From Telmatocola sphagniphila (lineage in GTDB: Bacteria; Planctomycetota; Planctomycetia; Gemmatales; Gemmataceae), in contig NZ_CP074694.1 of assembly GCF_018398935.1 (NCBI RefSeq), forward strand, positions 3,480,001 to 3,512,000: a stretch of 32,000 bases of DNA. The letters are read 5' to 3'. The translations under genes were made by a program, and so were the position numbers. Below the pieces are notes generated by a model. It had not been told where the DNA came from. It searched no databases and worked only from the letters and a program-made list of their open reading frames with translations. Positions 14,855 through 31,187 of this stretch are shown here, piece by piece (positions within the stretch are counted from its first letter, which is position 1; each line of letters opens with the position of its first letter).

Positions 14855-14920
14855 TTTGCCTTTTGAATTTCTGGAGAGTTCCGATTTGTAAGCTGTGAAA
14901 ATTCCAGGAGTTACATCATC

Positions 14921-16141
14921 ATGCAGAATCCCAAGGAAGACCCGAAGCCCGCAATTCGGATATTACTAATCGATTTGAATCTCGAAACGGAAGCCTTAAT
15001 CCAAAGCTATATCAGAAAAATCGAACATGCTCGCTTCCATCTCGATTCGACGACCGACCTCGGATGCGCTGCGGAATCGATACGGGAAAATCGACACGAT
15101 ATCTACCTACTTCATTTTTCCCCCGCCGGGACCAAACATCTGGATTTTTTGAAGGCCGTTCGAAAGGAGGGTTCCAAGAATCTCATCCTGACCCTTCTGG
15201 ATACCGCCGACGAGAAAGCCGAACGGCTCTTAATGGAGGCCGGAGCGAATGATATTCTCGTCCAGGACCAGTTCGATTCGTCCGATTTGGATCGCACCAT
15301 CCGCTATGCTTTACTTCAGAGGAAATCCGAAGCACAGCTGGAACGCCTGATCCAAGAAAGGACGCTCGAGCTGGCATTTGCCAATCAGACATTGCTGCTA
15401 GCGGATAAGCGGAAAAACGAATTTCTGGCTAGTCTGGCTCATGAACTTCGAAATCCCCTCACGCCCATCCAAAATGCGCTGGAAGTTATCCAAAATTCCA
15501 GCCAGCAACCTGGCCAAGTGGAGAAAGCGCGAGGAATCATCGAACGCCAATTGCAGGATCTGATTCGCTTAATCGACGACTTTCTCGTCATCTCCCGAAT
15601 CACTCGAAATAAGCTAACACTTCAATCGGAACAACTCGATTTGGCCGATGTTCTAAATCACTCGCTGGAAACTAATCAGCCTCTGATCGATAAAGCGCAT
15701 TTGAAAATCGAAAAGAATTTCCAGGAAGGAGATTGTTTCGTGTACGGAGATCGCATGCGATTGGAGCAGATTTTTGGCAACCTGCTCAACAACGCCATCA
15801 AGTTCAATCGACCTCATGGTAAGATCACTCTATCGGTTAAAGCAGAGAAGAAGCAGTACGTTACGCGAATTGCCGACACGGGAATCGGAATACCTCGACT
15901 GGAGTTGCAGGCTCTGTTAGCGTCTACCCGAAGCGAAGCCTTTAAACCCAACCATACTTCCAACGGCCTCGGTTTGGGCCTCACTCTCGTCAAAAAACTC
16001 GTTGAGATGCACGGCGGCTCCGTATCAATTCAAAGCGCGGGCAAAGACCAGGGCACCGAGGCCATCGTCCGACTCCCCAAATGGACGCGATGCGAAGAAT
16101 CTTCGGCCTCCTCGAAGTCGGCGACCAAAGGCGCCCTGTAA
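14921..16141 (+). CDS. histidine kinase with N-terminal pseudo-receiver domain
   Basis: 406 aa. H-box FLASLAHELRNPLTP, N-box LLNNAIKFN, G1 DTGIGI and G2 NGLGLGLTLV. The N-terminal ~130 aa follow the receiver fold pattern but lack the key residues. IDLN replaces DD, LLHFSP replaces the phospho-Asp, LTLLD replaces the conserved Thr, and LVQDQ replaces the conserved Lys. Confidence 0.85.
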   Translation: MQNPKEDPKPAIRILLIDLNLETEALIQSYIRKIEHARFHLDSTTDLGCAAESIRENRHDIYLLHFSPAGTKHLDFLKAVRKEGSKNLILTLLDTADEKAERLLMEAGANDILVQDQFDSSDLDRTIRYALLQRKSEAQLERLIQERTLELAFANQTLLLADKRKNEFLASLAHELRNPLTPIQNALEVIQNSSQQPGQVEKARGIIERQLQDLIRLIDDFLVISRITRNKLTLQSEQLDLADVLNHSLETNQPLIDKAHLKIEKNFQEGDCFVYGDRMRLEQIFGNLLNNAIKFNRPHGKITLSVKAEKKQYVTRIADTGIGIPRLELQALLASTRSEAFKPNHTSNGLGLGLTLVKKLVEMHGGSVSIQSAGKDQGTEAIVRLPKWTRCEESSASSKSATKGAL

Positions 16142-16520: not shown

Positions 16521-16675
16521 GCCTCAGGTTGCGCGCCACGGATGGCCTATACATTTTTCTATTTTGCAAATCTCCACTCTTTCATATTTTTCGCAATAGT
16601 CCACTAATCACTTTTCCGCGGCATCCTTCTTGCGAGACTTCTAGCGACGGAATTACTCAACTAGGAGGCAGAAAA

Positions 16676-17581
16676 ATGCGATCGATATATATTTCAGGCT
16701 TAGCGGTATTAGCACTTACAGCTAACGCAACCGCTCAACGTGCCCCCGCTGGAGGTACCCCTCAGGCGCCCTCGGGTGGTAACACGACTCCCCAGACCCC
16801 TCAAGGAGGCAATAATCCGACCGCACCCGCGGGAGGCCAGAACCAACCGCAAAACCCAGGCACTAACCCGGGGACAGGAAACCAACAGAATCCCACTCAA
16901 AACCCCAATCAAAACCCGAAGCAAAATACCAATCCGCTACCGAACAATCAGAACTTTAATGCGCAACGGCCGTACAACTATCCGTTCTCGATTTACGGTA
17001 TGAACGGCGTTTCGAAGTCTTTGAACCTCACCCAGGCACAAATGGACCGGCTGAACTCGCTCACCCAGAACACTCAAAATCGATTCAACCGCGATTTCTC
17101 CGGACTGAGCAATTTGAATGAGACCGAGCGAGCCAACCGAATGAATGAACTCAATCGCCAATATCAATCCGCCTGGATGAGTGGCGCTCGAGATATTTTT
17201 AATCAGAATCAATTCAATCGCTATCAGCAATTACACTATCAATACGGAGGCTTCAATACCTTGAATGACCCGGATATTCAGACGAAACTTAATCTGACTG
17301 CGCAACAGAAAAACAATCTTTCGAACTCCATCGATTGGAGTCGCCAGCAATTGCAGGAGATTCAACGCGTGGGCCAAAGCAATCCGGATCGTGGAAATGT
17401 TATGTATAGGGAATATCAGTCACAGTATCAAAATCGATTGAATCAGTTTTTAACCCCCGAACAACAAAAAGTCTGGCAACAACTTGTTGGAGAAAGTTAT
17501 AACTTCCAACCGACTTTCAACAATACTAATCCCAATACGTCCCCGAATAACTCTAACAACTCTAATACGCCACCCAGGTAA
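16676..17581 (+). CDS. secreted Asn/Gln/Pro-rich protein with three LTXXQ-type motifs (CpxP/Spy-like helical repeats)
   Basis: The start is moved to ATG 16676, with AGGAGG at 16664-16669. This gives the signal peptide MRSIYISGLAVLALTANATA. The mature protein begins with a Pro/Gln/Asn/Gly tract. The helical region contains LNLTQAQMDRLNSL, LNLTAQQKNNLSNS and FLTPEQQKVWQQL. Confidence 0.75.
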   Translation: MRSIYISGLAVLALTANATAQRAPAGGTPQAPSGGNTTPQTPQGGNNPTAPAGGQNQPQNPGTNPGTGNQQNPTQNPNQNPKQNTNPLPNNQNFNAQRPYNYPFSIYGMNGVSKSLNLTQAQMDRLNSLTQNTQNRFNRDFSGLSNLNETERANRMNELNRQYQSAWMSGARDIFNQNQFNRYQQLHYQYGGFNTLNDPDIQTKLNLTAQQKNNLSNSIDWSRQQLQEIQRVGQSNPDRGNVMYREYQSQYQNRLNQFLTPEQQKVWQQLVGESYNFQPTFNNTNPNTSPNNSNNSNTPPR

Positions 17582-18448: not shown

Positions 18449-19789
18449 TTAAACCAACTCTCGAATCACCTGACTTTCGACAATATGCGTTGGCCGACCG
18501 GTGGGATCGAGCACCATGGTGCTATCCGGATCGATACCGATGGCCTTGTAAATTGTCGCGAATACTTCGCTATGCGTGACGGGACGATCTTTAGCGTTTT
18601 CACCGAGGCGATCCGTGGAACCGACTACTTGTCCGGTCCGTAAAGCCCCTCCCGCGAGAATAGCACTACAAACCTGCGGCCAGTGGTCGCGTCCCGCTTC
18701 CTTATTGATGCGCGGCGTTCTGCCCATTTCTCCCCAGGCAATCACTACCACATCATTCAGCATGCCACGCTGCTTCAAATCATCGGTCAGGGCCGACAGA
18801 GCTTGATCCAGCTTTCGACCATGATCTCGGACCAGGTCGAAGTTCTTGCTATGACTATCCCAGCGACCAAAAGACAGGGTCACGCAGCGGACGCCTGCTT
18901 CCACGAGTCGTCGGGCCAGCAGAACCTGGTCGTTCACCGTAGGGGCGCCATCGTATTGGAACTGGTAAGGTTTTCCGTCCCCGTATCGCTTGCGCGAGGA
19001 TTCGGGTTCCTTGCTGAGATCCAGCGCATCCAATAGCTTGCTCGAGGTCAGCACATTCAGCGCTCTTTCGCTGGCGGCGTCCATCCCCCGGATGTTTCCA
19101 CTGGCATCGATTTCGCGACGAAGATTGTCAAACGAAGTTAACAGTTCCTTGCGATCACCCAAGGATTGCTGATTGATCGTCGACAGTTTCATGTTCGCCA
19201 GGTCGGGCCCTTCCGGCTTGAAAGCGGCATACGGTGCCCCTAGGAAACCGGGACCGCCGCAATCCGACCAGGGAAGGTGAGCCGTCTTCGCGGCCAAACC
19301 GACGAAAGGAGGCACGCTCGGATCTCCCGGGCCTAGCACTTTGGACAATAAGGATCCCATGCTCGGCCATCCGCCGATATTGGCGTTTGCTCGAGGAGGT
19401 TTGCCCGTGGTGCACTGAATGGCGTCGTGTCCCCCGGTCGAACCGACGATCGAGCGAATAATCGCATAATCGTTCATTCGCTTGGCAATTTCGGGAAAAC
19501 ACTCGCCGATCTGGATGCCATTCACGGCCGTACTGATCGGTTTGAATTCTCCGCGAATCTCGCTGGGAGCTTCTGGCTTTAAATCGAACGTGTCCTGATG
19601 GGGTGGACCGCCGCCCAGGAAAATATTGATTACGGCTTTGGGTGAAGTCTGCTTTTGGCTGGCCTCAGCACGGAAAATATCCGCCAAGGTCAGATTTGTA
19701 GCACCAAAGGCAAACGCACCAATTTTCAGGAAGGATCTACGATTAACGCCATCGCAATATTTCTGCGGAGAACCGAATAGCGTAAGCAT
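18449..19789 (-). CDS. DUF1501 domain-containing protein (sulfatase-like fold) with Tat-type signal
   Basis: 446 aa. The N-terminus CDGVNRRSFLKIGAFAFGATNL is the typical DUF1501 twin-arginine leader. The C-terminal conserved GRTPRIN...GRDHW motif is present. The RBS is AAGGGGA. Confidence 0.9.
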   Translation of the reverse strand: MLTLFGSPQKYCDGVNRRSFLKIGAFAFGATNLTLADIFRAEASQKQTSPKAVINIFLGGGPPHQDTFDLKPEAPSEIRGEFKPISTAVNGIQIGECFPEIAKRMNDYAIIRSIVGSTGGHDAIQCTTGKPPRANANIGGWPSMGSLLSKVLGPGDPSVPPFVGLAAKTAHLPWSDCGGPGFLGAPYAAFKPEGPDLANMKLSTINQQSLGDRKELLTSFDNLRREIDASGNIRGMDAASERALNVLTSSKLLDALDLSKEPESSRKRYGDGKPYQFQYDGAPTVNDQVLLARRLVEAGVRCVTLSFGRWDSHSKNFDLVRDHGRKLDQALSALTDDLKQRGMLNDVVVIAWGEMGRTPRINKEAGRDHWPQVCSAILAGGALRTGQVVGSTDRLGENAKDRPVTHSEVFATIYKAIGIDPDSTMVLDPTGRPTHIVESQVIRELV

Positions 19790-22290: not shown

Positions 22291-23052
22291 ATGAACTCCC
22301 TCCTTTTTCTCGTTAGCGGCTTAACACTCTTTATGACCTCCGATAATTCGCTGCTGGAGAAGCTGCGCTACGATAGCACCGCGCACAAAACGCTTCCCTA
22401 CAGATTCCTGAAACCGGCCCAGATCGAACAGGGCAAGAAGTACCCCCTGGTGATTTTTCTGCACGGGGCTGGGGAGCGCGGCACGGATAACGAAGCTCAG
22501 TTGAAACATGGGATTTCCAACTTTACCAGCAAGGAGAACCGGGAGAAACATCCTTGTTTCCTGATTGCCCCGCAGTGCCCGGAGGCTCGAAAATGGGTGG
22601 AAGTGGACTGGTCGGCCCGTACGCATCTGATGCCAGCGGAGCCGTCCGAACCGATGGGGGCTCTGTTGGAATTGATCGAAAAGACCATGAAGGATTATCC
22701 GATCGATCCCGAGCGCGTCTACGTCACCGGATTATCCATGGGCGGCTACGGCACCTGGGATCTGATGGCCCGACGACCGAAATTGATCGCGGCGGCGATA
22801 CCGGTCTGCGGCGGAGCCGATGAGCATACTGCCGAGAAAATCCAACATATTCCCGTCTGGGTATTTCATGGGGATCAGGATACGGCGGTAGCTCCCCAAA
22901 GATCCCGAAATATGGTGGCGGCTTTGAAAAAGGCCGGTGGATCTCCAAAGTATACGGAGTATAAAGGGGTCGGCCACGATTCCTGGACCGCCACTTACAA
23001 TAACGCCGACGTGATGCAATGGCTTTTCGCCCAGAAGAACTCCCCCAAATAA
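22291..23052 (+). CDS. alpha/beta hydrolase (phospholipase/carboxylesterase-type esterase), probably exported
   Basis: 253 aa. Nucleophile elbow GLSMGGYG, with HGDQD and GVGHDSW as acid/His candidates. The oxyanion region is LVIFLHGAGERG. The N-terminus is hydrophobic. Confidence 0.85.
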   Translation: MNSLLFLVSGLTLFMTSDNSLLEKLRYDSTAHKTLPYRFLKPAQIEQGKKYPLVIFLHGAGERGTDNEAQLKHGISNFTSKENREKHPCFLIAPQCPEARKWVEVDWSARTHLMPAEPSEPMGALLELIEKTMKDYPIDPERVYVTGLSMGGYGTWDLMARRPKLIAAAIPVCGGADEHTAEKIQHIPVWVFHGDQDTAVAPQRSRNMVAALKKAGGSPKYTEYKGVGHDSWTATYNNADVMQWLFAQKNSPK

Positions 23053-23060
23053 ACCACCCT

Positions 23061-24539
23061 ATGCTGGCAGAACTGAAGCTGCTTATCACTGCGGGTAATC
23101 CGATCATTACCATCGATACGCGTGAGGAGGAGCGGGCCGCCCAGATCGTCCGTAAAGTCGCCGAGGAGCTTTGCTTTCCCCTTTTCGAATGGGCGATCAC
23201 CCGCGGCCTGCAACGCACCATCCCCACTGTCACGGAAACCGGAATCAAGCCCGGCAAAGCGCCGCCCGCCCTCGAATACATTCTCGACAATAAAGGGAAT
23301 CGAGAGATTTATCTCTTTTACGAGTTGGCCGCCCACACCCGCGATCCCATCGTCGCGCGGCAGTTGCAGGAGATTTATAACCGATCGACCACGACGCTGA
23401 TTCTTATCAATCGAGAATCCCTGCCCGAGACGATCAATCGAATGACTGTGCCGGTCACCTTGAAGCTGCCAGACGCCGGGGAGGTCGAGTTCTTAGTCAA
23501 AGAAACCTATCGTTCGCTGAAAGAAACCAGCTATGTGGAGATCTCTTCCTCGCTGACCAAGCGGGAAATGGAGCAATTGGTGCAGTCTCTTCGAGGACTG
23601 ACCACTCTGGAGATCAATCGCATAATCCGGGCCTCCATTCTCGAAGACTACGCACTTTCCAGCGAAGATCTGCCACGAGTTGTAGAGATGAAGCGAAACC
23701 TGCTGAAATCGGCGGGTTGCCTGGAATCGATCGGCGTGAATTTTGCCCCCGAAGATATCGGCGGTTTAGCGTCTCTCAAAAAGTGGTTGAGCCGGCGGCG
23801 TGGCGGGATGTCTTCGAAAGCCAGAGCTTTCGGGCTCGATCCGCCGCGCGGCATCCTGCTGCTAGGTGTTCAAGGCTGCGGTAAAAGTCTCTGCGCGAAG
23901 ATCGTCGCCGCCGACTGGGGCATGCCGCTGCTCCGCATGGATCCGGGGGTTTTGTATCAGAAATTTATCGGGGAATCGGAGAATCGGTTGCGGGAAGCCC
24001 TGGCCCAGGCCGAATCGATGGCTCCGGTAATTCTCTGGATCGACGAAATCGAGAAAGCTTTCGCCTCCTCTTCCAGCAGTTCTGCAGATGGCGGTCTATC
24101 GCAGCGGATGTTCGGCACGCTGTTGACCTGGATGCAGGATCACCGCAGCCCCATCTTCATGGTAGCCACGGCGAACAACATCTCCGCTCTGCCGCCGGAA
24201 TTGATGCGCAAAGGCCGTTTTGATGAGATTTTCTTCGTCGATCTCCCAAACGATGCTGTCCGGCGGGACATCTGGAAAATTCACCTGCAGCGCCGCCAAC
24301 GCGACCCGAAATCGTTTAATCTCGAAAGACTGGCCGCGAAAAGCGAAGGCTTCAGTGGAGCCGAAATCGAACAGGCAGTTATCAGCGGCATGTTCGTGGC
24401 GTTCGCCGAGCGTTGCGAACTCTCCGATGACTTACTGATCAAGGAAATTGAGACGACCCGGCCCTTGTACAAGATGATGAGCGGAAAAATCAACAAGCTC
24501 CGCCGCTGGGCGAAAAACCGCTGCGTCTCGGCAGAATGA
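23061..24539 (+). CDS. AAA+ family ATPase with a ~240-aa N-terminal non-canonical domain
   Basis: Walker A GVQGCGKS, Walker [10 protein letters not shown] and a second region of homology [20 protein letters not shown]. The C-terminal helical lid carries GFSGAEIEQ. The start is chosen at ATG 23061, 8 nt after the hydrolase stop; an alternative ATG lies at 23019. Confidence 0.88.
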
Positions 24540-24706
24540 CTCCCGTTTGATCTTTCGATCGTATTCCTTTCGAATGAACCAGTTCTTCCAGTTGTAGTGC
24601 TCAAATCGACTGCATAAACCTGTCGGATTTCGCGGATTCCAATTGCTAAAACGACACAGATTACACAGAATAGGCAGTTCTCGCGGACTTTAGAGTTTGA
24701 CTAACT

Positions 24707-24733
24707 GAAAAACGCGGAATTTCCGCTCTTTTT
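24707..24733. terminator. weak hairpin flanked by A5 and T5
   Basis: AAAAACGCGGAATTTCCGCTCTTTTT. Only a 4-6-bp stem is possible. It lies ~170 nt after the ATPase stop. Confidence 0.25.
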
Positions 24734-24906
24734 CACTAAGGCGAAACTTATTTTCAGTCCCGAATCAGCCGCTTTGAGATCCGGCAGAAGTTATTTGCGG
24801 CTGCAATAAATGGAATAGTAATTCTGGCGAATGAATCGGTAAACGCAGTACAATCGTCAAAATCGATATCTATTGCGCTACTGCGATTCTAGTGAGATCT
24901 GCATCT

Positions 24907-27900
24907 ATGAAGCCATCCTCCGTTTTTCGCAAATTCATGATCGTCGTGGCGAGCATGGTTTGCGTCGGCTATCTGGTGTTCCGCGCGGCCTACACCTTCA
25001 ATCATTCCACCAATTATGCCACCTTCGCGTCCCTGTTCCTCTACATTGGGGAACTGTTCGGCATCATTAACTTGCTGCTTTACTTCCTGCAGGTTTGGGA
25101 AGTGAAAGAACCGGCGGCCATGCCGGTGATCGAAGGGCGAACCGTCGATGTGTTCGTTCCGACATACAACGAGGATCCGCAACTTCTGCGAGCGACCCTC
25201 GAAGCCTGCGTTCGCATGGATTACCCGCACCGCACCTTCGTCCTCGACGACGGACGTAGGCCGGAAGTAGCGGCCCTCGCCCACGAACTCGGTGTGAATT
25301 ACATCACCCGGCCCGATAATCGCCACGCCAAAGCCGGGAACCTGAATAACGCTTTCGAGCAGACCGACGGTGAATTCGTCATCATCCTCGATGCCGACCA
25401 CGTTCCGGAACCTCACTTCATTACCCGACTGATTGGATACTTCGCCGACGAGCGAGTCGGTTTTGTCCAGACGCCGCACGCTTTTTACAACTTCGATTCG
25501 TTCCAGGCTCAGTTGAATCACAAATCGCGCAAGTACTGGGAAGAAGGCGATTTGTTCTACCGGGTGATCCAGCCTGGTCGTAATCACTGGAATGCCCCGA
25601 TTTTCGCCGGTTCGGCGGCCATGTTCCGTCGGAGTTCGCTCAAGGATATTGGCTATATCGCCGTTGAAACGATCACCGAAGACCTGCACACCGGGATGCG
25701 TATGCACGCTCGGGGCTGGAAAGGAATCGCCATCACGGAACGACTGGTGGCCGGTCAGGCCGCTCCCGATATCACCACCTTCCATGCTCAACGCCTGCGT
25801 TGGGGTGAAGGTAACCTGTCGATCATGGCCTACGATCAACCGCTGACGATGCGCGGCCTGTCCATGCCGCAGCGGCTATGCTACTTCGGCTCGATGATTC
25901 ACTGGGCGAGTGGTGTTTTCAAGCTCGCGATTTATATGACGCCGATTTTGATGCTCTTTACGGGCGTCCCGCCGGTGCGTGAATTCTCCTGGGAATTGGC
26001 CGTCGTTACCGTCGTTTACCTACTCGTTTCGCTGATGGCTTTGAAGATCGTCAGCAACGGCTACGGCTCGATCATCAATTCCGAACTGTTCTCGATGGTG
26101 AACTTCTGGACGCAGATCAAGGCGACTTTCCGGGCGATTTTCCGTCGCCGCTTCCAGCGATTCGTGGTGACGCCGAAGCGAGCCTCGGCCGGGCCTCGAA
26201 CCGTCTGGCCTTACATTCGACCGCAGACTTACATCATCATCGCGGGTGTGCTCGCCTTGTTCTGGGGTTGGTCCCGACCGGCTCTGGGAATTTCCAATGA
26301 CTATTACAAGTCCATGGTGCCGACGTTCTGGGTGCTGTTGCACATTTATTTTGCCTACCTGGTGACGCGCCGCGCCTTCTGGCCGGCGGATAAACGCTAT
26401 GCTACCCGGCACGTTGTTCACCTTCCGGTGGAGTACGATTCGCTCGCGCATGGCGAAACTCGCTTTGGTGTGTCGGTCGATCTGAACGATTCGGGTATGT
26501 CTCTCATCGCCTACGAAAAACTGCCCACGGATCGGGAAATCCGCCTGATGCTACGCGGAGCGAGCGAAGTGTTAAAGTTGAAGGGGGAAATTCGCTCGGT
26601 CAACGAACTGGCCCGCGGGCGCGTTATTGATGGCTATCGTTATGGCATCGCTTTCAAGAACCTGACCACACCTCAGATCGATGCAATCAATCGAATTTGT
26701 CTCCAATATGCTGTGCCGCGCATGTACGCCGAGTACGACAAGGGGAACCGCAACACCCGCTGGAATCGCTTCGTCAACTGGCGCGATCGGGGTATGGCTC
26801 AGCGTCGCGGCAGCAATCGGTACCCGTATCACCTGCCACTGATCGTCAACCCCGGTACCAGCGAAGAGACGGCCTGTTACTCTTCAACCGAAGATATCAG
26901 CCGGGACGCTACCGCCACCTTCGTGGATGTGAACATCCCCGCCAATACAGTTGTCGGTTTCATGATGCCGACCCCACTGGGCGATGTTCGCGGCTTGGGA
27001 CGCGTGGTTCGATCCTCGCCGCAATTCTTTGGCGGCCGAACCTACTATCGCTGCATCATGGAGTTTCAGGATTTTGAAGGCCAGGGACGAACCACTCTGC
27101 AATCGCTGGTAAATCCGGTCGAAACCGCCCATTTGAACGCCGTCCTGAAGCCGGATAAAAAGCCGATCATTCCCCGCATGGGCATTCCGATTCTGATCAT
27201 CAGTCTGATTGCCATTCCGCTGATCATCGCTCAATTGGGTGTGTTCCGCGTAGTGCATCGCGACGACTTCAAGCTGCGGGAATTAATCCAGACCAAGCCG
27301 GATGACATCACCAGCATTCAGCAGCAGGAACTGGATCGTATTTACAACGACACCAAGAAAGATCCCTATCCGACGACGGATCGATTGGTTTTAATGCTGG
27401 AAGCACTTTCCAAGGTGGGACGACAGCGCGATCCCGAAGCGGCCAACATGGTCCGCGAGCTCGCCTCTCGCGACGAGAAGAATCTGGAATTGCGCAGCTC
27501 GGTGGTCGGAGCTATGGACCAGTTGCGTCTGCAGCAGGATGCCGAAGTGGAATATCAGAAACTTCAGGAACTGGAAAAACGGGGCGGTTTCAAAAATCGA
27601 CCCGATCTGGTCAAGAAGTTCCATCTCGCCGGCGCCCGTGTGGCGTTCAAGAGCGGCAATTTCGCGTTGGCCGCGGAGCGATTCAAGGAAATCGCTGCCG
27701 GGGAACCGAATGATCTCGCTTTACGCCGAGAATGTGCCGGGGTGATGATCGAAGCCCGGCGCTACAAGGAAGCCGCCGACTTGCTCTTCGACACTCCCAA
27801 TCTGGACGTGGAAGGCCGTCAGTTCCTGGTGGCCGCGCTAACGCTGGATAAGCAGTACGAAAAAGCCGAGGAAGAGGCCAAGAAACTGCTCGAACTCGCG

Positions 27901-30900
27901 CCGAACGATCCGAAGCACCAGGCGATCCTCGCGGAAGTTTACAGCGCTCGCAATTATCATCAGCAATCTCGAGTGATACTCGAAAAACTGCTGGCTCAGA
28001 ACCCTAACGACACCAATATCCTGCTGAAATTGGCTCAAATCGATCTTTCGAGTCAACAGTGGGAAGATGCTCTGCTGCGTCTGCAATCGCTTATCGAAAA
28101 TAATGAAACTTCAGCGCCCGTCGTCGAAGCCTGGGTCGATGCCGCTTCCAGCTATCCGAAGACACTCACCGAGAAGCAGAAGCAAACCGCCCTCATGATT
28201 TTCGATCGCGAGAGCAAGCAACCTTCGCCCAAGCCGGTGTTTCTGGCTCGACTCAGCTGGGTGCTACAACATCAACTGAATGAAATCGGTAAGTCGCGCA
28301 CCATGCTGGAACATGCCCTTCGGATGGCCCCTTCCGATCAGACGGTGAAGGACCAGTTGGCCGGGGTGCTGATTAAAGCCGGCGAGTGGGAAGAAGCCAT
28401 CAAGATCATGGGAGGCAGCAGTAATCTGGCCGCCCGCAAACTGATGGTGGGCGTCCTGATCAAGAAGGGGGAACTCGACAAAGCGGAGATGGAAGCCCGT
28501 TCGATTCTCGATCAGAATCGGGACGATATCGAAATCGAAAAACTGGTGGCCGACATTCACAGTTGGAAGAAGGAATTCGATAAAGCCCTGACTATGTACG
28601 AAAAGATGCGTGCGGCCAATCCGTCCGATCGCTCCATTCAGGCTCGAATCGCGGAAATCACGCTCTGGAAGGGCACAGATTATCCGGGAGCGCTGGCCAA
28701 GTACACGAAACTGCTGGAGGACGAATTCGACTTCCAGTTCAACCGCAAACAACCCACCCAACAGATTTGGGACGGTTTCATCGATGCGGCCTCCGGAGCC
28801 GCCAGCCTGGATGCCGCACAAACACGCATGGCACTGAAAGTCGCCAGCGCCAAGCTGAAGCTCGAAAAACCGGATCCCATCATGCTATCCCGCATGGCTT
28901 GGGTGCTGTTACGGTCAGTCGATTCGGGGGAGGCGCGGCAAGAAGCCGATAAGCTTCTGACCAAAGCTGTGGAAATGAAGCCGACCGATCCCGCAGTGAA
29001 AAGAGAGCTGGCAGGCGTGCTAGCCAAGGCCGAGAAATACGAAGAGGCCGTCAAGATGATGGAAGGCGTGCCCTATGGGGATTCCGATCGGATTACCCTC
29101 GCTTTCCTTTATTCCGGTTTCAAGAACTTCGACAAGGCCGAGGAGCAGATCAACGCCCTGCTTGCCAAGCAGCCAACTGATAAGAAGCTGCTGAAGATGA
29201 AGGCCGACCTGATGAGCTGGAAGGGAACACCCGCCGAGCAGGATAAAGCTCTCGCCGCCTTCGAACAACTCGTTAAGGATTTCCCCGACGATCCCGAATT
29301 CCCGGTTCGACAGGCCGAAATCGTTCTGTGGAAGAAGGAGTACGAAACGGCGCTCGGGAAGTTTCAAACCTTGCTCAACCAGTATCCGGACAACCCGAAT
29401 ATCTGGGCAGGTTTCGCAACCGCCGCGGCCAATATCAACCGCGAACTACCGGTAGATACGATCGCACTGGCCAAGCGCATTCTGGATCGCGCTTTAGTGA
29501 CGGAACTTAAAAATCCGCTGCTCTATGCTCGAATGGCCATGCTTTCCACGAAATTGAAGGACGCAGCCAAAACCGAGATTTTCGTCAACCGAGCCGTTCA
29601 GAACAAGCCGACCGATTCCGTGGAACGGAAAGAACTGGCCGGCTTGCTGATGGGAATCAACCGATCCCGTGAAGCCGTGAAGATGTACGAAGGGCTGAAA
29701 CTCAATATTGAAGACCGCAAGAACTACATTTACGCTGCCGCTTCGGCCGAGGATCTCAATACTTCGGCGAAGCAGGCCCGTTTGCTGGTTCAGGATGCCC
29801 CGAAAGATCGCGTGGCCCAACGCATTCTGGCCGATGTGCTGAGTTGGAAGGGCGATTTCCAGGAATCGCTGACAATTTACGAACGCCTCCTGCGAAGTTC
29901 CAAGGACGATAACACGCTGAAGATTGACGTTGCCAACGTCAATCTCTGGATGAACGCCTATCCCGAAGCCATGAAGAGATACCAGAATCTGCTTGGGGAG
30001 AAATTCGAACAGGCTTCGCTCTGGGAAGGCTTCATTGATGCCGCTTCCAGCGCCTCGCTTTCGGTTACACTTACCGAGGAGCAAAAACGGCTCGCCCTGC
30101 AGATTTACGATCAATGGTCGCGAATCGAAATTACCGATGCCTCTCGTTTGTCTCGTCTGGGTTGGGTGATGTATAAGGTGGGTGACCTGTCGAAAGCCTC
30201 GGCCACCATGGATCGCGCTTTGCGATTGAATCCGCCCGAACCGTCGGTCCGCAAAGAACTGGCGGGAGTGCTGGCGGCCCTGAAACGCAACACAGAAGCT
30301 CTGGCACTCGTGAAGGATCTGCCCAACCTGAACTTTGCCGAACGCAATACGCTGGCCACCTTGCTGAGTGCCAATAAACGCTTCGACGAAGCCGAGGCAG
30401 AATTGCGGACACTCGTCAAAGCCAAGCCGAACGATCCGGAACTGCGTCGCCAGTTGGCCGATGTATTGCTCTGGAACGGCCGCTATCAGGATGCCGAGGC
30501 GATGTACGCCAATCTTCTGCGGAATATGCCGGCCAACACCGACGTCAAACTGGTTGAGGACGTGCAACTGAAGTTGGCCCAGACCTCCTTGTGGGGCGGC
30601 AACGGACCTATCGCGGCAGAACGCTTCCAGGCTCTGATGAAGAAAGATGCCAACAATCCGGAATACATCGCCGGGTACATCGATTCGCTCTCGACGCTTA
30701 AGGATATTAGCGCTGATCAGGAAAAGGCGATTCGGACCATCAACGCCAAGATTCAAACGCTCAAGACCAGCGAGACCGATCCGCAACGCATCGCAGACGT
30801 TCAGAAACGGCTCCTGAGCAATATGGGCCGGATCATGGCGAAGTTGAGTCTGAAGTCACGCGACGGAGCTTTCGATAAAGCTCGTAGCCGACAGCTCTAC

Positions 30901-31053
30901 ATGCAGGCCATTGCCATGGATCCGCAATCCCGGGCTCTCTGGCAACGTTATGCCCAATCGTTGTTCGACATGCGGGAATTCGGCGAGGCCGATCAGATCC
31001 TGACGTCGATCATCGCCGGGGATGTTCCCACCCTGCCCAAAAACGGAAATTGA
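24907..31053 (+). CDS. BcsA-like family-2 glycosyltransferase fused to tandem PilZ domains, an extra TM helix and a ~1,250-aa TPR-like region
   Basis: One uninterrupted ORF, with an ATG at 24907 or a GTG at 24892. BcsA signature set: VFVPTYNED, VLDDG, HAKAGNLN, ILDADH, QTPHAFYN, ITEDLHTGMRMHARGW, QRLRWGEG and the gating-loop-like FVVTPK. There are 2 + ~6 TM helices. PilZ 1 has RYATR plus DLNDSGMSL. PilZ-like 2 has RGSNR plus EDISRDA. A TM helix IPILIISLIAIPLIIAQLGVF follows, then helical TPR-like repeats run to the C-terminus. Confidence 0.9.
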   Translation: MKPSSVFRKFMIVVASMVCVGYLVFRAAYTFNHSTNYATFASLFLYIGELFGIINLLLYFLQVWEVKEPAAMPVIEGRTVDVFVPTYNEDPQLLRATLEACVRMDYPHRTFVLDDGRRPEVAALAHELGVNYITRPDNRHAKAGNLNNAFEQTDGEFVIILDADHVPEPHFITRLIGYFADERVGFVQTPHAFYNFDSFQAQLNHKSRKYWEEGDLFYRVIQPGRNHWNAPIFAGSAAMFRRSSLKDIGYIAVETITEDLHTGMRMHARGWKGIAITERLVAGQAAPDITTFHAQRLRWGEGNLSIMAYDQPLTMRGLSMPQRLCYFGSMIHWASGVFKLAIYMTPILMLFTGVPPVREFSWELAVVTVVYLLVSLMALKIVSNGYGSIINSELFSMVNFWTQIKATFRAIFRRRFQRFVVTPKRASAGPRTVWPYIRPQTYIIIAGVLALFWGWSRPALGISNDYYKSMVPTFWVLLHIYFAYLVTRRAFWPADKRYATRHVVHLPVEYDSLAHGETRFGVSVDLNDSGMSLIAYEKLPTDREIRLMLRGASEVLKLKGEIRSVNELARGRVIDGYRYGIAFKNLTTPQIDAINRICLQYAVPRMYAEYDKGNRNTRWNRFVNWRDRGMAQRRGSNRYPYHLPLIVNPGTSEETACYSSTEDISRDATATFVDVNIPANTVVGFMMPTPLGDVRGLGRVVRSSPQFFGGRTYYRCIMEFQDFEGQGRTTLQSLVNPVETAHLNAVLKPDKKPIIPRMGIPILIISLIAIPLIIAQLGVFRVVHRDDFKLRELIQTKPDDITSIQQQELDRIYNDTKKDPYPTTDRLVLMLEALSKVGRQRDPEAANMVRELASRDEKNLELRSSVVGAMDQLRLQQDAEVEYQKLQELEKRGGFKNRPDLVKKFHLAGARVAFKSGNFALAAERFKEIAAGEPNDLALRRECAGVMIEARRYKEAADLLFDTPNLDVEGRQFLVAALTLDKQYEKAEEEAKKLLELAPNDPKHQAILAEVYSARNYHQQSRVILEKLLAQNPNDTNILLKLAQIDLSSQQWEDALLRLQSLIENNETSAPVVEAWVDAASSYPKTLTEKQKQTALMIFDRESKQPSPKPVFLARLSWVLQHQLNEIGKSRTMLEHALRMAPSDQTVKDQLAGVLIKAGEWEEAIKIMGGSSNLAARKLMVGVLIKKGELDKAEMEARSILDQNRDDIEIEKLVADIHSWKKEFDKALTMYEKMRAANPSDRSIQARIAEITLWKGTDYPGALAKYTKLLEDEFDFQFNRKQPTQQIWDGFIDAASGAASLDAAQTRMALKVASAKLKLEKPDPIMLSRMAWVLLRSVDSGEARQEADKLLTKAVEMKPTDPAVKRELAGVLAKAEKYEEAVKMMEGVPYGDSDRITLAFLYSGFKNFDKAEEQINALLAKQPTDKKLLKMKADLMSWKGTPAEQDKALAAFEQLVKDFPDDPEFPVRQAEIVLWKKEYETALGKFQTLLNQYPDNPNIWAGFATAAANINRELPVDTIALAKRILDRALVTELKNPLLYARMAMLSTKLKDAAKTEIFVNRAVQNKPTDSVERKELAGLLMGINRSREAVKMYEGLKLNIEDRKNYIYAAASAEDLNTSAKQARLLVQDAPKDRVAQRILADVLSWKGDFQESLTIYERLLRSSKDDNTLKIDVANVNLWMNAYPEAMKRYQNLLGEKFEQASLWEGFIDAASSASLSVTLTEEQKRLALQIYDQWSRIEITDASRLSRLGWVMYKVGDLSKASATMDRALRLNPPEPSVRKELAGVLAALKRNTEALALVKDLPNLNFAERNTLATLLSANKRFDEAEAELRTLVKAKPNDPELRRQLADVLLWNGRYQDAEAMYANLLRNMPANTDVKLVEDVQLKLAQTSLWGGNGPIAAERFQALMKKDANNPEYIAGYIDSLSTLKDISADQEKAIRTINAKIQTLKTSETDPQRIADVQKRLLSNMGRIMAKLSLKSRDGAFDKARSRQLYMQAIAMDPQSRALWQRYAQSLFDMREFGEADQILTSIIAGDVPTLPKNGN
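28132..31053 (+). repeat. tandem ~206-215-aa protein-level super-repeat (five modules) inside the TPR-like region
   Basis: The anchor motif W-x-G-F-(I/A)-D/T-A-A recurs at codons starting 28132, 28768, 29404 and 30022, with a degenerate copy at 30667. The spacings are 636, 636, 618 and 645 nt. Each module also repeats (L/M)SR(L/M)xWV(L/M), (K/R)ELAGVL and two A(D/E)(I/V)xxWK-type helices. Confidence 0.7.
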
Positions 31054-31065: not shown

Positions 31066-31115
31066 AATTCCTTGTCGGGCTTTCAGAGTTCTCGAGATCC
31101 GAAGACTCTGAAAGC
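31066..31115 (+). terminator. rho-independent terminator of the giant synthase gene
   Basis: 13-bp perfect stem GGGCTTTCAGAGT (31066-31078) / ACTCTGAAAGCCC (31093-31105), followed by TTCTTTTTT. It lies 13 nt after the stop. Confidence 0.85.
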
Positions 31116-31187
31116 CCTTCTTTTTTAGCCGGAGCGCTCACTTCGAACTAATCTTATAAGTGTGAATTCCTTCCTCTGAGATCGGCG

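What the first reader, a model, noticed from the sequence alone, without database searches (positions are those of the whole stretch)
24907..31053. Single-polypeptide BcsA-like synthase fused to two PilZ domains, an extra TM helix and a BcsC/PelB-style TPR scaffold
**Seen in sequence.**
- One ~6.1-kb ORF contains the full cellulose-synthase (BcsA) motif set: DDG, DAD, TED, QRLRW, HAKAGN and the FxVTxK gating loop. An RxxxR PilZ domain follows.
- It then continues through a second PilZ-like domain, one more hydrophobic helix (27166-27255) and ~1,250 aa of TPR-like helical repeats.
- No bcsB, bcsZ, bcsC or porin-like gene lies in the flanks. Upstream is an AAA ATPase; downstream are a terminator and manA.

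**Established knowledge.**
- In synthase-dependent exopolysaccharide systems (Bcs, Pel, alginate, PNAG), the TPR scaffold is a separate periplasmic or outer-membrane protein (BcsC, PelB, AlgK, PgaA).
- BcsA needs the C-terminal TM anchor of BcsB.

**Inference.**
- The extra TM helix would put the TPR array in the periplasm, covalently coupling the c-di-GMP-gated synthase to its export scaffold.
- That helix could substitute for the BcsB anchor.
- There is no C-terminal beta-barrel, which is notable for a lineage with an unusual envelope.
Basis: partly seen in the sequence, partly recalled or inferred. Interest (0 to 1): 0.75.

Follow-up and report, generated by a model that had tools for sequence, protein, structure and literature searches.

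The report
Planctomycete cellulose synthase fused to TPR scaffold
One 2,048-residue gene joins a c-di-GMP-gated cellulose-synthase-like enzyme to two PilZ sensor domains, an extra membrane helix and a long periplasmic TPR solenoid; this uncharacterised design is conserved in Planctomycetota, and related genomes often add a cellulase and a probable outer-membrane partner.

Summary

**What it contains**
- A BcsA-type GT2 core and membrane channel: PDB E 5e-79; AF2 pLDDT 89; Foldseek top hits are BcsA.
- Two PilZ domains. The second is real: profile-profile probability 97%, with a conserved RxxxR.
- A seventh TM helix (residues 757-783).
- About 1,250 aa of all-helical TPR solenoid with no beta-barrel. 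It is built from a ~205-aa super-repeat.

**Not an artefact.** More than 110 full-length homologues share the layout. Every named source is Planctomycetota, apart from three MAG contigs with other labels. The family is narrow: 65 clusters among 1.84 billion representatives.

**Interpretation partly supported**
- A periplasmic TPR follows from BcsA topology plus the positive-inside rule. This is inferred, not shown.
- TM7 replacing the BcsB anchor is untested.
- The "self-contained, barrel-less" reading needs correcting. Relatives often place two genes next to the synthase. One is a GH5 endo-beta-1,4-glucanase. The other is a separate ~1,300-1,450-aa TPR protein whose unannotated C-terminal domain looks like an outer-membrane barrel (unverified).
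- Neither partner lies in this 32-kb window, and no bcsB was found in any locus.
- TPR module number ranges from about 1.5 to 11 across the family.

**Verdict:** new variant of a known kind; interest about 0.55.

The parts
24907..31053 (+). Whole gene: fused synthase / tandem PilZ / TM7 / TPR solenoid, 2,048 aa plus stop
   Evidence: Single ORF. More than 110 full-length homologues share the architecture.
24919..25092 (+). Two N-terminal TM helices (residues 5-62), equivalent to BcsA TM3-TM4
   Evidence: Hydropathy. AF2 helices 5-30 and 36-62. The alignment starts at residue 66 of R. sphaeroides BcsA and residue 197 of E. coli BcsA.
25129..25836 (+). Cytoplasmic GT2 catalytic domain (residues 75-310) with DDG, HAKAGN, DAD, TED and QRLRW
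   Evidence: Pfam PF00535 E 6e-27, PF13641, PF03552. Motif residues invariant in 45 sequences.
25864..26376 (+). Interface helices and four TM helices (residues 320-490), equivalent to BcsA TM5-8. Includes the gating loop FVVTPK (residues 419-424, nt 26161-26178).
   Evidence: AF2 helices 320-352, 362-382, 389-416, 434-459 and 467-490. The only segment with pLDDT below 50 is 424-430. F419, V421, T422 and K424 are invariant.
26392..26751 (+). PilZ domain 1 (residues 496-615): R497xxxR501 and D525-L-N-x-x-G530
   Evidence: Pfam PilZ E 2e-11. R497, R501 and G530 are invariant. AF2 shows a strand barrel plus helix 588-615.
26800..27147 (+). PilZ domain 2 (residues 632-747): R634xxxR638 and D663-x-S-x-x-A
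   Evidence: Pfam PilZ 20.6 bits, below the 22.5 cut-off but covering the whole profile. hhalign against PilZ1: 97.1%, E 7e-11. R634 is invariant; R638, T661, E662 and D663 are at least 90% conserved. AF2 pLDDT above 90.
27175..27255 (+). Extra (seventh) TM helix, residues 757-783, predicted to run from cytoplasm to periplasm
   Evidence: Kyte-Doolittle 2.68. Present at about 760-810 in 119 of 120 homologues. AF2 helix 759-783. Flanking charge +1.9 before and -0.4 after.
27352..27396 (+). Highly conserved periplasmic juxtamembrane motif T816...P822..D825-R-L-V-L-L830; function unknown
   Evidence: Column conservation 0.94-0.99, higher than anywhere else in the ectodomain.
27304..31050 (+). Periplasmic TPR solenoid (residues 800-2048), all alpha-helical, with no beta-barrel
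   Evidence: Pfam TPR_19 E 4e-62. AF2 gives 67 helices and 0 strands over residues 785-1984, pLDDT 87. Foldseek hits are long TPR solenoids.
27634..28104 (+). Partial first ~205-aa TPR super-repeat module (residues 910-1066)
   Evidence: Module HMM E 3e-30.
28129..30660 (+). Four full ~205-aa TPR super-repeat modules (residues 1075-1287, 1288-1499, 1500-1705, 1706-1918)
   Evidence: Pairwise identity 26-37%. Module HMM E 2e-59 to 2e-68.
30673..31005 (+). C-terminal half-module (residues 1923-2033). The same half-module ends the protein in each relative examined.
   Evidence: Module HMM positions 3-95. The same terminal half-module is seen in L018, L019, L024 and L015.
31077..31126 (+). Intrinsic-terminator-like hairpin followed by a U-run
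   Evidence: -29.8 kcal/mol, z -3.3; sequence read.
24540..24906 (+). 367-bp upstream intergenic region. The gene appears to be monocistronic.
   Evidence: Sequence. No Rfam family in the window. No sigma-70-like site on the + strand.

Best explanation
The gene encodes an inner-membrane, c-di-GMP-activated, processive BcsA-type beta-glucan (most likely cellulose) synthase from a planctomycete related to Gemmataceae.

**Proposed mechanism**
- The cytoplasmic GT2 domain polymerises UDP-glucose.
- The chain is pushed through a channel formed by six TM helices equivalent to BcsA TM3-8.
- The FxVTxK gating loop is released when c-di-GMP binds the PilZ region, as in BcsA. Here that region is a tandem of two PilZ domains, each keeping an RxxxR motif.
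- After the second PilZ, a seventh TM helix carries the chain back across the membrane.
- About 1,250 residues (roughly 33 TPR-like hairpins in ~205-aa modules) therefore sit in the periplasm, covalently tethered at the channel exit.
- This solenoid acts as the periplasmic scaffold or guide of a synthase-dependent secretion system.
- In relatives it works with a GH5 endo-beta-1,4-glucanase (BcsZ/CcsZ-like) and a second, separately encoded TPR protein. The C-terminal domain of that protein is a candidate outer-membrane pore.
- No BcsB is involved.

**Shown:** the domains, the motifs, the BcsA fold, conservation of the fusion, the modular repeat, and the gene linkage in relatives.

**Inferred:** the topology, the product, c-di-GMP binding, the scaffold function, and the partner being a pore.
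For: **BcsA identity**
- All catalytic and gating motifs are present and invariant.
- phmmer against PDB: E. coli BcsA E 5e-79, R. sphaeroides BcsA E 5e-71.
- NCBIfam CelA is the top hit, E 3e-116.
- AF2 model pLDDT 89.4, pTM 0.85.
- Foldseek top 8 hits are all BcsA; E 1.4e-35, TM 0.63 normalised to the query and up to 0.72 normalised to the target.

**Tandem PilZ:**

**TM7 and topology:**

**TPR solenoid:**. Super-repeat.

**Conservation**
- More than 110 full-length homologues of 2,000-3,300 aa.
- 22 genome loci, including Zavarzinella, Gemmataceae MAGs, Blastopirellula marina, Rubripirellula and Pirellulaceae; Tuwongella came.
- 65 clusters at 50% identity match the PilZ2-TM7 region, always at about residues 620-940 of proteins of 1,157-3,733 aa.
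- All names seen are Planctomycetota.

**Product clue**
- A GH5 gene (PF00150, E 1e-34 to 1e-39) abuts or neighbours the synthase in five genome loci, eight metagenome loci and L064.
- Its closest solved relatives are endo-1,4-beta-glucanases, E 1e-54.

**Partner**
- A separate TPR protein with a conserved C-terminal domain lies next to the synthase in six genome loci.
- It also does so in 13 of 37 loci found by searching with that domain, always convergent.
Against: - CelA TIGR03030 scores 389 bits against an equivalog cut-off of 699, and PRK11498 scores 324 against 992. NCBI's rules would not name this protein BcsA.
- PilZ1 has N in place of the canonical S (D-L-N-x-x-G).
- PilZ2 has A in place of the final G and falls below Pfam's gathering score.
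- BcsA is reported to need the BcsB tail for activity (Omadjela 2013, cited in PMC8892547). No bcsB is seen here or in any related locus.
- Neither the GH5 gene nor the partner lies in this window. Neither lies within 10 kb in Tuwongella or Zavarzinella. The three-gene system is therefore not shown for this genome.
- Topology rests on prediction only.
- The review PMC8892547 notes that no specific interaction between a TPR-rich periplasmic protein and its cognate exopolysaccharide has been reported for any system. The "guide" role is an assumption carried over from the field.
Confidence: 0.72

Rival explanations
1. The machinery is the same but the product differs. The enzyme would make another polymer (mixed-linkage or beta-1,3 glucan, cyclic glucan or another hexosan) and not cellulose.
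For: - The protein scores below the curated equivalog cut-offs for CelA/BcsA.
- BcsA-like "orphan" proteins in pseudomonads have been proposed to make other glucans (PMC10237404, listed).
- A manA-like gene lies immediately downstream in this window.
- GH5 is a broad family.
Against: - The closest sequence and structure matches are bona fide cellulose synthases.
- The linked GH5 enzymes in relatives are closest to endo-1,4-beta-glucanases, E 1e-54.
- The manA linkage was not seen in the four loci whose called genes were inspected.
Confidence: 0.18
2. The TPR solenoid is not an export conduit. It would be a docking or positioning platform that recruits partner proteins or peptidoglycan or fixes the synthase at particular envelope sites. 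Alternatively, the polymer stays in the periplasm or wall layer and is not secreted.
For: - There is no barrel in this polypeptide, and no porin or partner in the window.
- No direct TPR-polysaccharide binding has been reported for any system (PMC8892547).
- The best NCBIfam similarities are to diverse scaffold TPR proteins: PrsT, MamA, FlcA and Tgl.
- A conserved terminal half-module and a conserved juxtamembrane motif look like protein-docking elements.
Against: - Recurrent linkage to a second TPR protein with a barrel-like C-terminal domain and to a periplasmic-type glucanase matches the component list of synthase-dependent secretion systems.
- The two roles are not mutually exclusive.
Confidence: 0.25
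3. TM7 is not membrane-spanning, or the region is cleaved or misassigned, so the TPR array is cytoplasmic. It would then act as an intracellular regulatory or oligomerisation domain.
For: - Topology was only predicted.
- BcsA has a membrane-associated amphipathic helix after its PilZ domain (own knowledge; not checked here).
- TM7 is the least conserved TM helix.
Against: - The 25-residue segment is uniformly hydrophobic. It has the highest hydropathy in the protein (2.68) and a low helical hydrophobic moment (0.10). It is therefore not amphipathic.
- It is conserved in position in 119 of 120 homologues.
- The charge bias fits an in-to-out orientation.
- Linked partners carry signal-peptide-like N-termini.
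Confidence: 0.05
4. The long ORF is an assembly or annotation artefact that joins separate genes.
For: AT skew changes sign near position 27000.
Against: - The same continuous architecture occurs in more than 110 independent assemblies, including complete or large-scaffold isolate genomes of Tuwongella immobilis, Zavarzinella formosa and Blastopirellula marina.
- The one apparently split copy examined in detail (L064) is a frameshift within PilZ2 in a long-read assembly. Three shorter ORFs in other MAG loci (L009, L011, L012) were not inspected.
Confidence: 0.01

Closest known systems
BcsA, catalytic subunit of bacterial cellulose synthase (R. sphaeroides 4HG6/4P00; E. coli 7LBY/9B8V)
   Same: - GT2 fold with the D,D,D,QxxRW, HAKAGN and FxVTxK motifs.
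- TM channel helices equivalent to TM3-8.
- A C-terminal PilZ domain with RxxxR.
- Best sequence and structure matches.
   Different: - Lacks the TM1-2 equivalents and the E. coli N-terminal extension.
- Has a second PilZ domain, a seventh TM helix and about 1,250 aa of periplasmic TPRs.
- No bcsB is nearby in any locus examined.
- Scores below NCBIfam equivalog cut-offs.
BcsK (porin-less TPR scaffold of type III Bcs systems) and PelE (inner-membrane co-polymerase with TPRs), as described in PMC8892547
   Same: A TPR scaffold without a beta-barrel, acting with an inner-membrane synthase. PelE is membrane-anchored and counted as a co-polymerase.
   Different: - Here the scaffold is covalently fused to the synthase and is several times longer.
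- It is built from a family-specific ~205-aa super-repeat.
- Sequence homology to BcsK or PelE was not tested because no model or sequence was available in the tools.
BcsC / PgaA / PelB (periplasmic TPRs plus an outer-membrane beta-barrel)
   Same: - TPR solenoid of an exopolysaccharide system, with weak model hits to the PgaA and BcsC TPR regions.
- The separately encoded partner in relatives has the same overall layout: export signal, TPRs, then a ~300-aa C-terminal non-TPR domain.
   Different: [quoted passage not shown]
- The partner's C-terminal domain matches no Pfam family or PDB sequence, so it is not a recognisable BCSC_C domain.
BcsAB (AcsAB) and BcsZC fusions (PMC7112194)
   Same: A precedent for fusing the synthase, or other Bcs components, into one polypeptide.
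   Different: Those fusions join BcsA to BcsB, or BcsZ to BcsC. A BcsA-TPR fusion is not mentioned in that survey, which also does not mention Planctomycetes.
CcsABZ of Clostridia (GH5 CcsZ) and cyanobacterial Tll0007/HlyD/TolC systems
   Same: Non-canonical cellulose systems that swap accessory parts. CcsZ is a GH5 enzyme and not a GH8 BcsZ (PMC8892547).
   Different: Different accessory proteins, and neither has a TPR fused to the synthase.

Membership tests
BcsA (UDP-forming cellulose synthase catalytic subunit) | GT2 domain with the DDG, DxD, TED and QxxRW motifs | tested here: met
   D114-D115-G116, D162-A-D164, T257-E-D259 and Q295-R-L-R-W299 are present and invariant. PF00535 E 6e-27.
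BcsA (UDP-forming cellulose synthase catalytic subunit) | HAKAGN and the FxVTxK gating loop | tested here: met
   Residues 140-145 and 419-424. K142-N145, F419, V421, T422 and K424 are invariant. The loop is the only low-pLDDT segment.
BcsA (UDP-forming cellulose synthase catalytic subunit) | BcsA three-dimensional fold, including the TM channel | tested here: met
   AF2 pLDDT 89.4. Foldseek hits to 9b8v_E (E 1.4e-35) and 4p00_A (target-normalised TM 0.72). The TM1-2 equivalents are absent.
BcsA (UDP-forming cellulose synthase catalytic subunit) | C-terminal PilZ domain with RxxxR and [D/N]xSxxG | tested here: met
   PF07238 E 2e-11. R497xxxR501 is invariant. The second motif is the variant D-L-N-x-x-G, with S replaced by N.
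BcsA (UDP-forming cellulose synthase catalytic subunit) | Score above the curated equivalog cut-off (TIGR03030 / PRK11498) | tested here: not met
   389 bits against 699, and 324 against 992.
BcsA (UDP-forming cellulose synthase catalytic subunit) | Partner BcsB encoded alongside as the co-catalytic tail-anchored subunit | tested here: not met
   No BcsB-like gene in the window. None in the called genes of the five loci inspected, and no bcsB-like gene family recurred beside the synthase across about 25 related loci. Whole genomes could not be searched.
BcsA (UDP-forming cellulose synthase catalytic subunit) | Product is beta-1,4-glucan, and activity is stimulated by c-di-GMP | not testable with these tools
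   Indirect support only: a linked GH5 endo-1,4-beta-glucanase in relatives.
BcsC-type exporter (TPR plus outer-membrane beta-barrel) | C-terminal 16-stranded beta-barrel (BCSC_C) | tested here: not met
   No strands in the AF2 model of residues 785-1984. The last 64 residues match the helical half-module. No BCSC_C hit.
BcsC-type exporter (TPR plus outer-membrane beta-barrel) | Score above the NF008520 cut-off | tested here: not met
   28.5-32.9 bits against 858.
BcsK / PelE-like porin-less or inner-membrane-anchored TPR scaffold | TPR-rich periplasmic module without a porin, associated with the synthase | tested here: met
   An architectural match only, using the definition in PMC8892547.
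BcsK / PelE-like porin-less or inner-membrane-anchored TPR scaffold | Sequence homology to BcsK or PelE | not tested
   No BcsK or PelE model appeared among the listed best 25 NCBIfam or Pfam hits. No reference sequence was available for a direct comparison.
Tandem PilZ c-di-GMP receptor | Second domain has the PilZ fold and an RxxxR motif | tested here: met
   hhalign 97.1%, E 7e-11, with motifs in register. R634 is invariant and R638 at least 90% conserved. AF2 beta-barrel plus helix, pLDDT above 90. Pfam alone is sub-threshold: 20.6 against 22.5.
Tandem PilZ c-di-GMP receptor | Binds c-di-GMP | not testable with these tools
   Needs ITC, DRaCALA or a similar assay on residues 490-750.

The most novel reading that the evidence does not exclude
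Planctomycetes would run a BcsB-independent cellulose secretion system.
- The synthase carries its own inner-membrane-anchored TPR solenoid, which is length-adjustable (about 1.5 to 11 modules of ~205 aa).
- The solenoid spans the unusually wide and variable planctomycetal periplasm.
- It docks, through its conserved terminal half-module, onto a second TPR protein that ends in a previously undescribed family of outer-membrane beta-barrel.
- TM7 plus the conserved juxtamembrane motif would take over the co-catalytic role of the BcsB tail.
- The tandem PilZ would give a two-site c-di-GMP switch.
Probability: 0.3. Interest if true: 0.75.

Novelty: new variant of a known kind. Interest (0 to 1): 0.55.

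Why it matters
- **BcsB dependence.** Reported BcsA-BcsB complexes need the BcsB tail for polymerisation (PMC8892547). A conserved BcsA family with no BcsB nearby and a built-in extra TM helix plus periplasmic scaffold is a natural test of what that tail actually contributes.
- **Role of the TPR scaffold.** The fusion fixes the synthase-to-scaffold ratio at 1:1. It also places the start of the TPR solenoid at the channel exit. The long-assumed but unproven "TPR guide" role therefore becomes directly testable in a single polypeptide.
- **Envelope geometry.** Variation from about 1.5 to 11 modules between Pirellulales-type and Gemmataceae-type proteins suggests the scaffold length is tuned to the envelope. 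This bears on how Planctomycetes move polymers across their enlarged periplasm.
- **A possible new exporter family.** The linked partner's unannotated C-terminal domain may be a new outer-membrane exporter family.
- **Ecology.** A planctomycetal cellulose-like matrix polymer under c-di-GMP control has not been described in the literature I could search.

Tried and rejected
**Searches that found nothing**
- Rfam scan of the whole window, for example for a c-di-GMP riboswitch upstream: no hits.
- Sigma-70 promoter scan: nothing on the + strand upstream.
- phmmer of the TPR region against PDB: only generic TPR hits.
- Six of seven literature searches for this fusion, or for planctomycetal cellulose, found nothing relevant; one search surfaced only general PilZ and Bcs reviews. 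Romling & Galperin 2015 and Morgan 2013 are not held.
- Exact look-up of the window protein in the assembly collection: not on record. The source genome is also not among the GTDB representatives; the best match is 71-75% identity. The rest of the genome could therefore not be searched for bcsB, GH5 or the partner.

**Neighbours considered and dropped**
- The AAA ATPase upstream and manA downstream: not seen beside the synthase in the four loci whose called genes were inspected, and the AAA ATPase did not recur in the neighbour clustering. Both rejected as system components.
- DUF1501 recurs near the synthase in three loci. It is an abundant planctomycete family and was treated as coincidence.

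**Partner C-terminal domain**
- Classification by Pfam, by PDB profile search and by homologue names gave nothing.
- Only composition, period-2 hydrophobicity and the C-terminal Phe pattern support a barrel.

**Other**
- The apparent natural split of the synthase in L064 was rejected. It is a frameshift.
- Self-BLAST of the TPR region did not reveal the repeats. Motif spacing and an HMM did.

Full report

Yes. A single ORF runs from 24892 (GTG) / 24907 (ATG) to the stop at 31053 on the + strand. The ATG at 24907 matches the N-terminus of the homologues.

- DDG (114-116), HAKAGN (140-145), DAD (162-164), TED (257-259), QRLRW (295-299)
- FVVTPK (419-424)
- PilZ R497xxxR501

These residues are invariant, or at least 90% conserved, in a 45-sequence alignment.

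Pfam gives Glycos_transf_2 (E 6e-27), Cellulose_synt, PilZ (E 2e-11, two stretches) and many TPR families (TPR_19 E 4e-62). NCBIfam ranks CelA/BcsA first (E 3e-116), but below the curated equivalog cut-off: 389 bits against 699.

The flanks are as described:
- AAA ATPase at 23019-24539.
- A 367-bp intergenic region.
- A strong hairpin plus U-run at 31077-31126, -29.8 kcal/mol, z -3.3.
- A class I mannose-6-phosphate isomerase-like gene from 31188.

Nothing resembling bcsB, bcsZ, bcsC or a porin is recognisable in the 32 kb.

**2. Anatomy**

*N-terminal 840 residues*
- Residues 7-481 align to E. coli BcsA 197-680 (E 5e-79). Residues 8-539 align to R. sphaeroides BcsA 66-621 (E 5e-71).
- The protein therefore has the equivalents of BcsA TM3-TM8 but not TM1-2.
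- An AlphaFold2 model of residues 1-840, built on 45 homologues, is confident: pLDDT 89.4, pTM 0.85. Its only disordered stretch is 424-430, directly after the gating-loop motif.
- Foldseek against the PDB returns eight BcsA structures first (E 1.4e-35 to 9e-29; TM 0.55-0.63 normalised to the query, up to 0.72 normalised to the target), then plant CesA.

*PilZ pair*
- PilZ1 (496-615) is canonical, except that the second motif reads D-L-N-x-x-G.
- A second domain (632-747) scores only 20.6 bits on its own against Pfam's 22.5.
- Family profiles of the two regions align at 97.1% probability, E 7e-11, over 105 columns. RxxxR and DxSxx[G/A] fall in register.
- R634 is invariant. R638, T661, E662 and D663 are at least 90% conserved.
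- The model shows a second beta-barrel plus helix at pLDDT above 90.
- The tandem PilZ is therefore real, and both copies keep the arginine motif.

- It is the most hydrophobic segment of the protein: Kyte-Doolittle 2.68, helical hydrophobic moment only 0.10.
- It is found at the same place in 119 of 120 homologues at the threshold used.

*Ectodomain (about 800-2048)*
- It is entirely helical: 67 helices and no strands in the model of residues 785-1984, pLDDT 87.
- It resembles very long TPR solenoids such as TTC21B, Ski3, Ctr9 and OGT.
- It is a tandem array of a ~205-aa super-repeat of about six hairpins.
- The array consists of one partial module, four full modules (1075, 1288, 1500, 1706; 26-37% pairwise identity) and a terminal half-module (1923-2033).

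**3. Topology (inferred)**

The GT and PilZ domains use cytoplasmic UDP-sugar and c-di-GMP, so they must be cytoplasmic, as in the BcsA structures. Exactly one TM helix separates PilZ2 from the TPRs, which places the TPRs in the periplasm.

Across 116 family members the 17 residues before TM7 carry a net charge of +1.9, and the 17 after it -0.4. The N-terminus carries +2.2. This is consistent with the positive-inside rule. No experiment or dedicated topology predictor was available.

**4. Not an artefact; a conserved but narrow family**

- A search of 5.8 billion clusters returned more than 110 full-length proteins of 2,000-3,300 aa. They share 38-47% overall identity (48-68% over the first 840 residues) and the same domain order.
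- Named sources in that search are Gemmataceae: Tuwongella immobilis, Zavarzinella formosa and MAGs.
- A scan of GTDB species representatives found 22 loci. These also include Pirellulales: Blastopirellula marina DSM 3645 (1,187 aa), Rubripirellula (1,172 aa) and a Pirellulaceae MAG (2,332 aa).
- Three contigs in that scan are labelled Bacteroidales or Alcaligenaceae. They are MAG contigs and probably mis-binned; this was not checked.
- An exhaustive HMMER search with the family-specific part (PilZ2-TM7-linker, residues 620-900) found only 65 clusters with E at or below 1e-3 among 1.84 billion 50%-identity representatives.
- In the full-length hits the match lies at about residues 620-940 of proteins of 1,157-3,733 aa.
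- Every name attached to the more distant clusters is Planctomycetota or Planctomycetia; other members come from unnamed Tara and GOS marine samples.
- The source genome of the window is not in either collection.

**5. Length variation is modular**

An HMM of the ~205-aa module counts:
- 5 modules in proteins of about 2,040-2,200 aa (the window protein belongs here)
- 7 at about 2,415 aa
- 8 at about 2,650 aa
- 9 at about 2,845 aa
- 10 at about 3,025-3,070 aa
- 11 at about 3,175-3,285 aa

Some bins are broader than this. For example, the 6-module class spans 2,043-3,122 aa, presumably because divergent modules go undetected.

The short Pirellulales proteins have only about 1.5-2 modules. In each relative checked, the protein ends in the same half-module (HMM positions about 1-97). 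A short periplasmic motif just after TM7 (T816, P822, D825-R-L-V-L-L830) is 94-99% conserved.

Both ends of the solenoid are thus conserved while the middle expands and contracts. That pattern is what one expects of a spacer with defined docking ends (inference).

From my own recollection of TPR superhelix geometry (about 1 nm per repeat, from the OGT TPR domain), 33 hairpins would reach roughly 30 nm.

**6. Partners**

*Synthase-seeded loci*
- The gene stands alone in the window. No GH5 gene or partner protein lies within 10 kb in Tuwongella and Zavarzinella, and no GH5 gene in MAG L003.
- I clustered all ORFs from about 25 loci. Apart from ORFs lying within the synthase gene itself and synteny among a few closely related Gemmataceae loci, the recurrent neighbours shared across diverse lineages are a GH5 enzyme and a second TPR protein. 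DUF1501 also recurs, in three loci (see section 11).
- The first is a GH5 enzyme (PF00150, E 1e-34 to 1e-39). It abuts or overlaps the synthase start in Rubripirellula L018 and Pirellulaceae L020 and lies upstream in Gemmataceae L017. It is divergent in B. marina L019 and convergent in L004. Its closest solved relatives are endo-1,4-beta-glucanases (4lx4, E 1e-54).
- The second is a separate TPR protein of about 1,300-1,450 aa, found in L003, L004, L009, L018 (cut by the contig end), L019 (two adjacent or overlapping ORFs) and L020.
- This protein has a signal-peptide-like or anchor N-terminus, a Pro-rich linker, TPRs, and a conserved ~300-aa non-TPR C-terminal domain.
- Motifs in that domain are GDENEY, GFLENV..N.ES..QDIY, YSDxN and G[TA]IHPYFAP. 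The chain ends in ...Y..[VI]R[FL]P.

*Partner-seeded loci*
- Searching metagenome contigs with this C-terminal domain gave 37 loci.
- Thirteen contain the synthase N-terminus in the flank, always on the opposite strand with the 3' ends facing.
- Eight also carry a GH5 gene; seven of them overlap the thirteen, and there the GH5 lies at the synthase 5' end.
- Most loci without the synthase have too little flank or are distant (~30% identity) relatives.
- A 5.96-Mb contig shows the same arrangement: partner, then convergent synthase, then GH5. There the synthase is broken by a frameshift and is not naturally split.

*Is the partner's C-terminal domain a barrel?*
- It has no Pfam match even at E 10, no PDB sequence match, and only unannotated homologues.
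- Its composition (G 9.7%, Y 7.8%, F 7.6%, N 7.2%, A 5.8%) contrasts with the TPR part (A 14%, L 11.5%).
- About 14-16 conserved segments show period-2 hydrophobic alternation: 27% of windows against 6% in a TPR control.
- The terminal alternating strand has a near-terminal Phe.
- All of this fits an outer-membrane beta-barrel, which would make the partner BcsC/PgaA/PelB-like in layout.
- I could not verify it.
- Neither partner gene is in the window, and the rest of this genome could not be examined.

**7. How it most likely works**

*Shown*
- A BcsA-fold synthase with intact catalytic, gating and PilZ motifs.
- A second PilZ domain, an extra TM helix and a modular TPR solenoid.
- Conservation of the fusion.
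- Linkage in relatives to a GH5 endoglucanase-like enzyme and a TPR/C-terminal-domain protein.

*Inferred*
- c-di-GMP binding to the PilZ region releases the gating loop.
- UDP-glucose is polymerised, and the beta-1,4-glucan is extruded through the TM3-8-type channel.
- The chain emerges next to the tethered solenoid, which scaffolds its passage and/or recruits the hydrolase and the outer-membrane partner.

*Comparison with known scaffolds*
- The review PMC8892547 supplies the background used here.
- The BcsB tail (TM anchor plus amphipathic helix) is indispensable for BcsA activity and sits in a groove formed by TM1-3.
- BcsK is a TPR scaffold without a porin.
- PelE is an inner-membrane co-polymerase that contributes TPRs.
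- E. coli BcsC has 19 TPRs.
- No direct TPR-polysaccharide interaction has been reported for any system.
- By that yardstick, the closest functional analogy for the C-terminal two-thirds of this protein is a BcsK/PelE-like scaffold fused to the synthase. BcsC or PelB is a poorer fit.

*Does TM7 replace the BcsB anchor?*
- The idea is attractive, because TM1-2 are missing and no bcsB is seen.
- TM7 is, however, the least conserved TM helix (0.47 against 0.52-0.81). Only L772 and F780 stand out.
- A plain anchor is at least as likely. This remains open.

**8. Rivals**

- A different polymer: sub-threshold CelA score and the manA neighbour, against the GH5 endoglucanase linkage and the closest matches being true cellulose synthases. 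About 0.18.
- The TPR as a docking or positioning platform, or a non-secreted polymer. About 0.25, and not exclusive of the main model.
- A cytoplasmic TPR. About 0.05.
- An assembly artefact. About 0.01, refuted by conservation.

**9. Comparison with the known, and novelty**

- The catalytic part passes the motif and fold tests for BcsA. It fails the curated equivalog score and the BcsB-partner criterion, so I call it BcsA-like and not BcsA.
- It fails both tests for BcsC (no barrel; 28-33 bits against 858).
- Known fusions in this field are BcsAB and BcsZC (PMC7112194).
- I found no paper describing a BcsA-PilZ-PilZ-TM-TPR protein or cellulose synthesis in Planctomycetes. The library lacks most subscription journals, so this is weak negative evidence.
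- Public annotation calls these proteins "glycosyltransferase", "tetratricopeptide repeat protein" or "cellulose synthase (UDP-forming)".
- Verdict: a new variant of a known kind (synthase-dependent exopolysaccharide secretion). It is conserved within one phylum and uncharacterised.

**10. Score**

Interest 0.55. A specialist would find several features noteworthy and experimentally useful:
- the absence of BcsB
- the covalent synthase-scaffold coupling
- the tandem PilZ
- the 1.5-to-11-module range
- the possibly new outer-membrane domain

The parts list is nevertheless that of a familiar system. The key functional claims are inferred. This particular window shows only the synthase.

**11. 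Seen in passing**

- A KaiC homologue flanked by histidine kinases (8199-16141).
- Two low-complexity N/Q/P/G-rich proteins with signal-like N-termini (2547-3422 on the - strand; 16529-17581 on the + strand).
- A DUF1501 gene (18449-19789). This family also neighbours the synthase in Zavarzinella and L012.
- Long antisense ORFs inside the TPR-coding region, up to 430 aa. They are probably spurious.
- An AT-skew sign change near position 27000 that coincides with the start of the K/E/A-rich TPR coding region.
- One genome (OY970367.1) that carries both a long copy (2,145 aa, L013) and a short copy (1,233 aa, P0126) of the family.

Noticed in passing
L003:16261-20523 (-), L004:24481-28725 (-), L020:4777-8718 (+), L019:13534-17206 (-), L018:6762-7916 (-), L009:16722-19868 (-): A separately encoded TPR protein of about 1,300-1,450 aa lies next to the synthase. 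Its conserved ~300-aa C-terminal domain has no Pfam or PDB match. That domain is rich in G, Y, F and N, shows about 14-16 period-2 hydrophobic segments and has a near-terminal Phe. It is a candidate new outer-membrane beta-barrel exporter domain; the fold is unverified.
   Followed up: partly
L018:2020-3225, L020:8878-9996, L017:3546-4667, L019:8320-9408 (-), L004:19346-20377 (-), L064:15835-16950 (-): A GH5 enzyme (closest solved relatives are endo-1,4-beta-glucanases) is the recurrent hydrolase neighbour of the synthase in relatives. It plays the BcsZ/CcsZ-like position. It is absent from the 32-kb window.
   Followed up: yes
window 27352-27396 (residues 816-830): The periplasmic motif T816...P822..DRLVLL830, just after TM7, is 94-99% conserved across the family. 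That is far more than the surrounding ectodomain or TM7 itself. Its function is unknown.
   Followed up: partly
window 8199-16141: A KaiC homologue (11500-12960, - strand; PF06745 E 3e-108) is flanked by a PAS/GAF hybrid histidine kinase (8199-10805, - strand) and another histidine kinase (14921-16141, + strand). This may be a KaiC-based signalling module in a planctomycete.
   Followed up: no
window 2547-3422 (-) and 16529-17581 (+): Two ORFs encode low-complexity N/Q/P/G/S/Y-rich proteins with signal-peptide-like N-termini and no Pfam match.
   Followed up: no
window 23019-24539 (+): A CDC48/PAN-like AAA ATPase with a ~270-aa N-terminal region that has no Pfam hit lies 367 bp upstream on the same strand. 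It is not seen near the synthase in the related loci examined.
   Followed up: partly
window 18449-19789 (-); L005:16796-18265; L012:1871-3154: A DUF1501 gene lies within about 6 kb of the synthase in the window and next to it in Zavarzinella and one MAG. This is probably coincidence, because the family is very abundant in Planctomycetes.
   Followed up: no
window 27000-31000: AT skew switches from about -0.1 to between +0.1 and +0.18 exactly over the TPR-coding part. Long antisense ORFs (for example 29494-30786, - strand, 430 aa) occur there. Both are probably by-products of the A-rich K/E/A/N codon usage of the repeats.
   Followed up: no
L013 (OY970367.1) and protein P0126: One 6.49-Mb planctomycete chromosome carries both a long (2,145 aa) and a short (1,233 aa) member of the synthase family, so paralogues with different TPR lengths can coexist.
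   Followed up: no
L064:11429-15792 (-); also L009, L011, L012: In long-read or MAG assemblies the synthase is sometimes called as two or more genes. In L064 this is a frameshift inside PilZ2, because another frame reads straight through TM7. Such split calls are assembly errors or pseudogenes and not natural unfused versions.
   Followed up: partly
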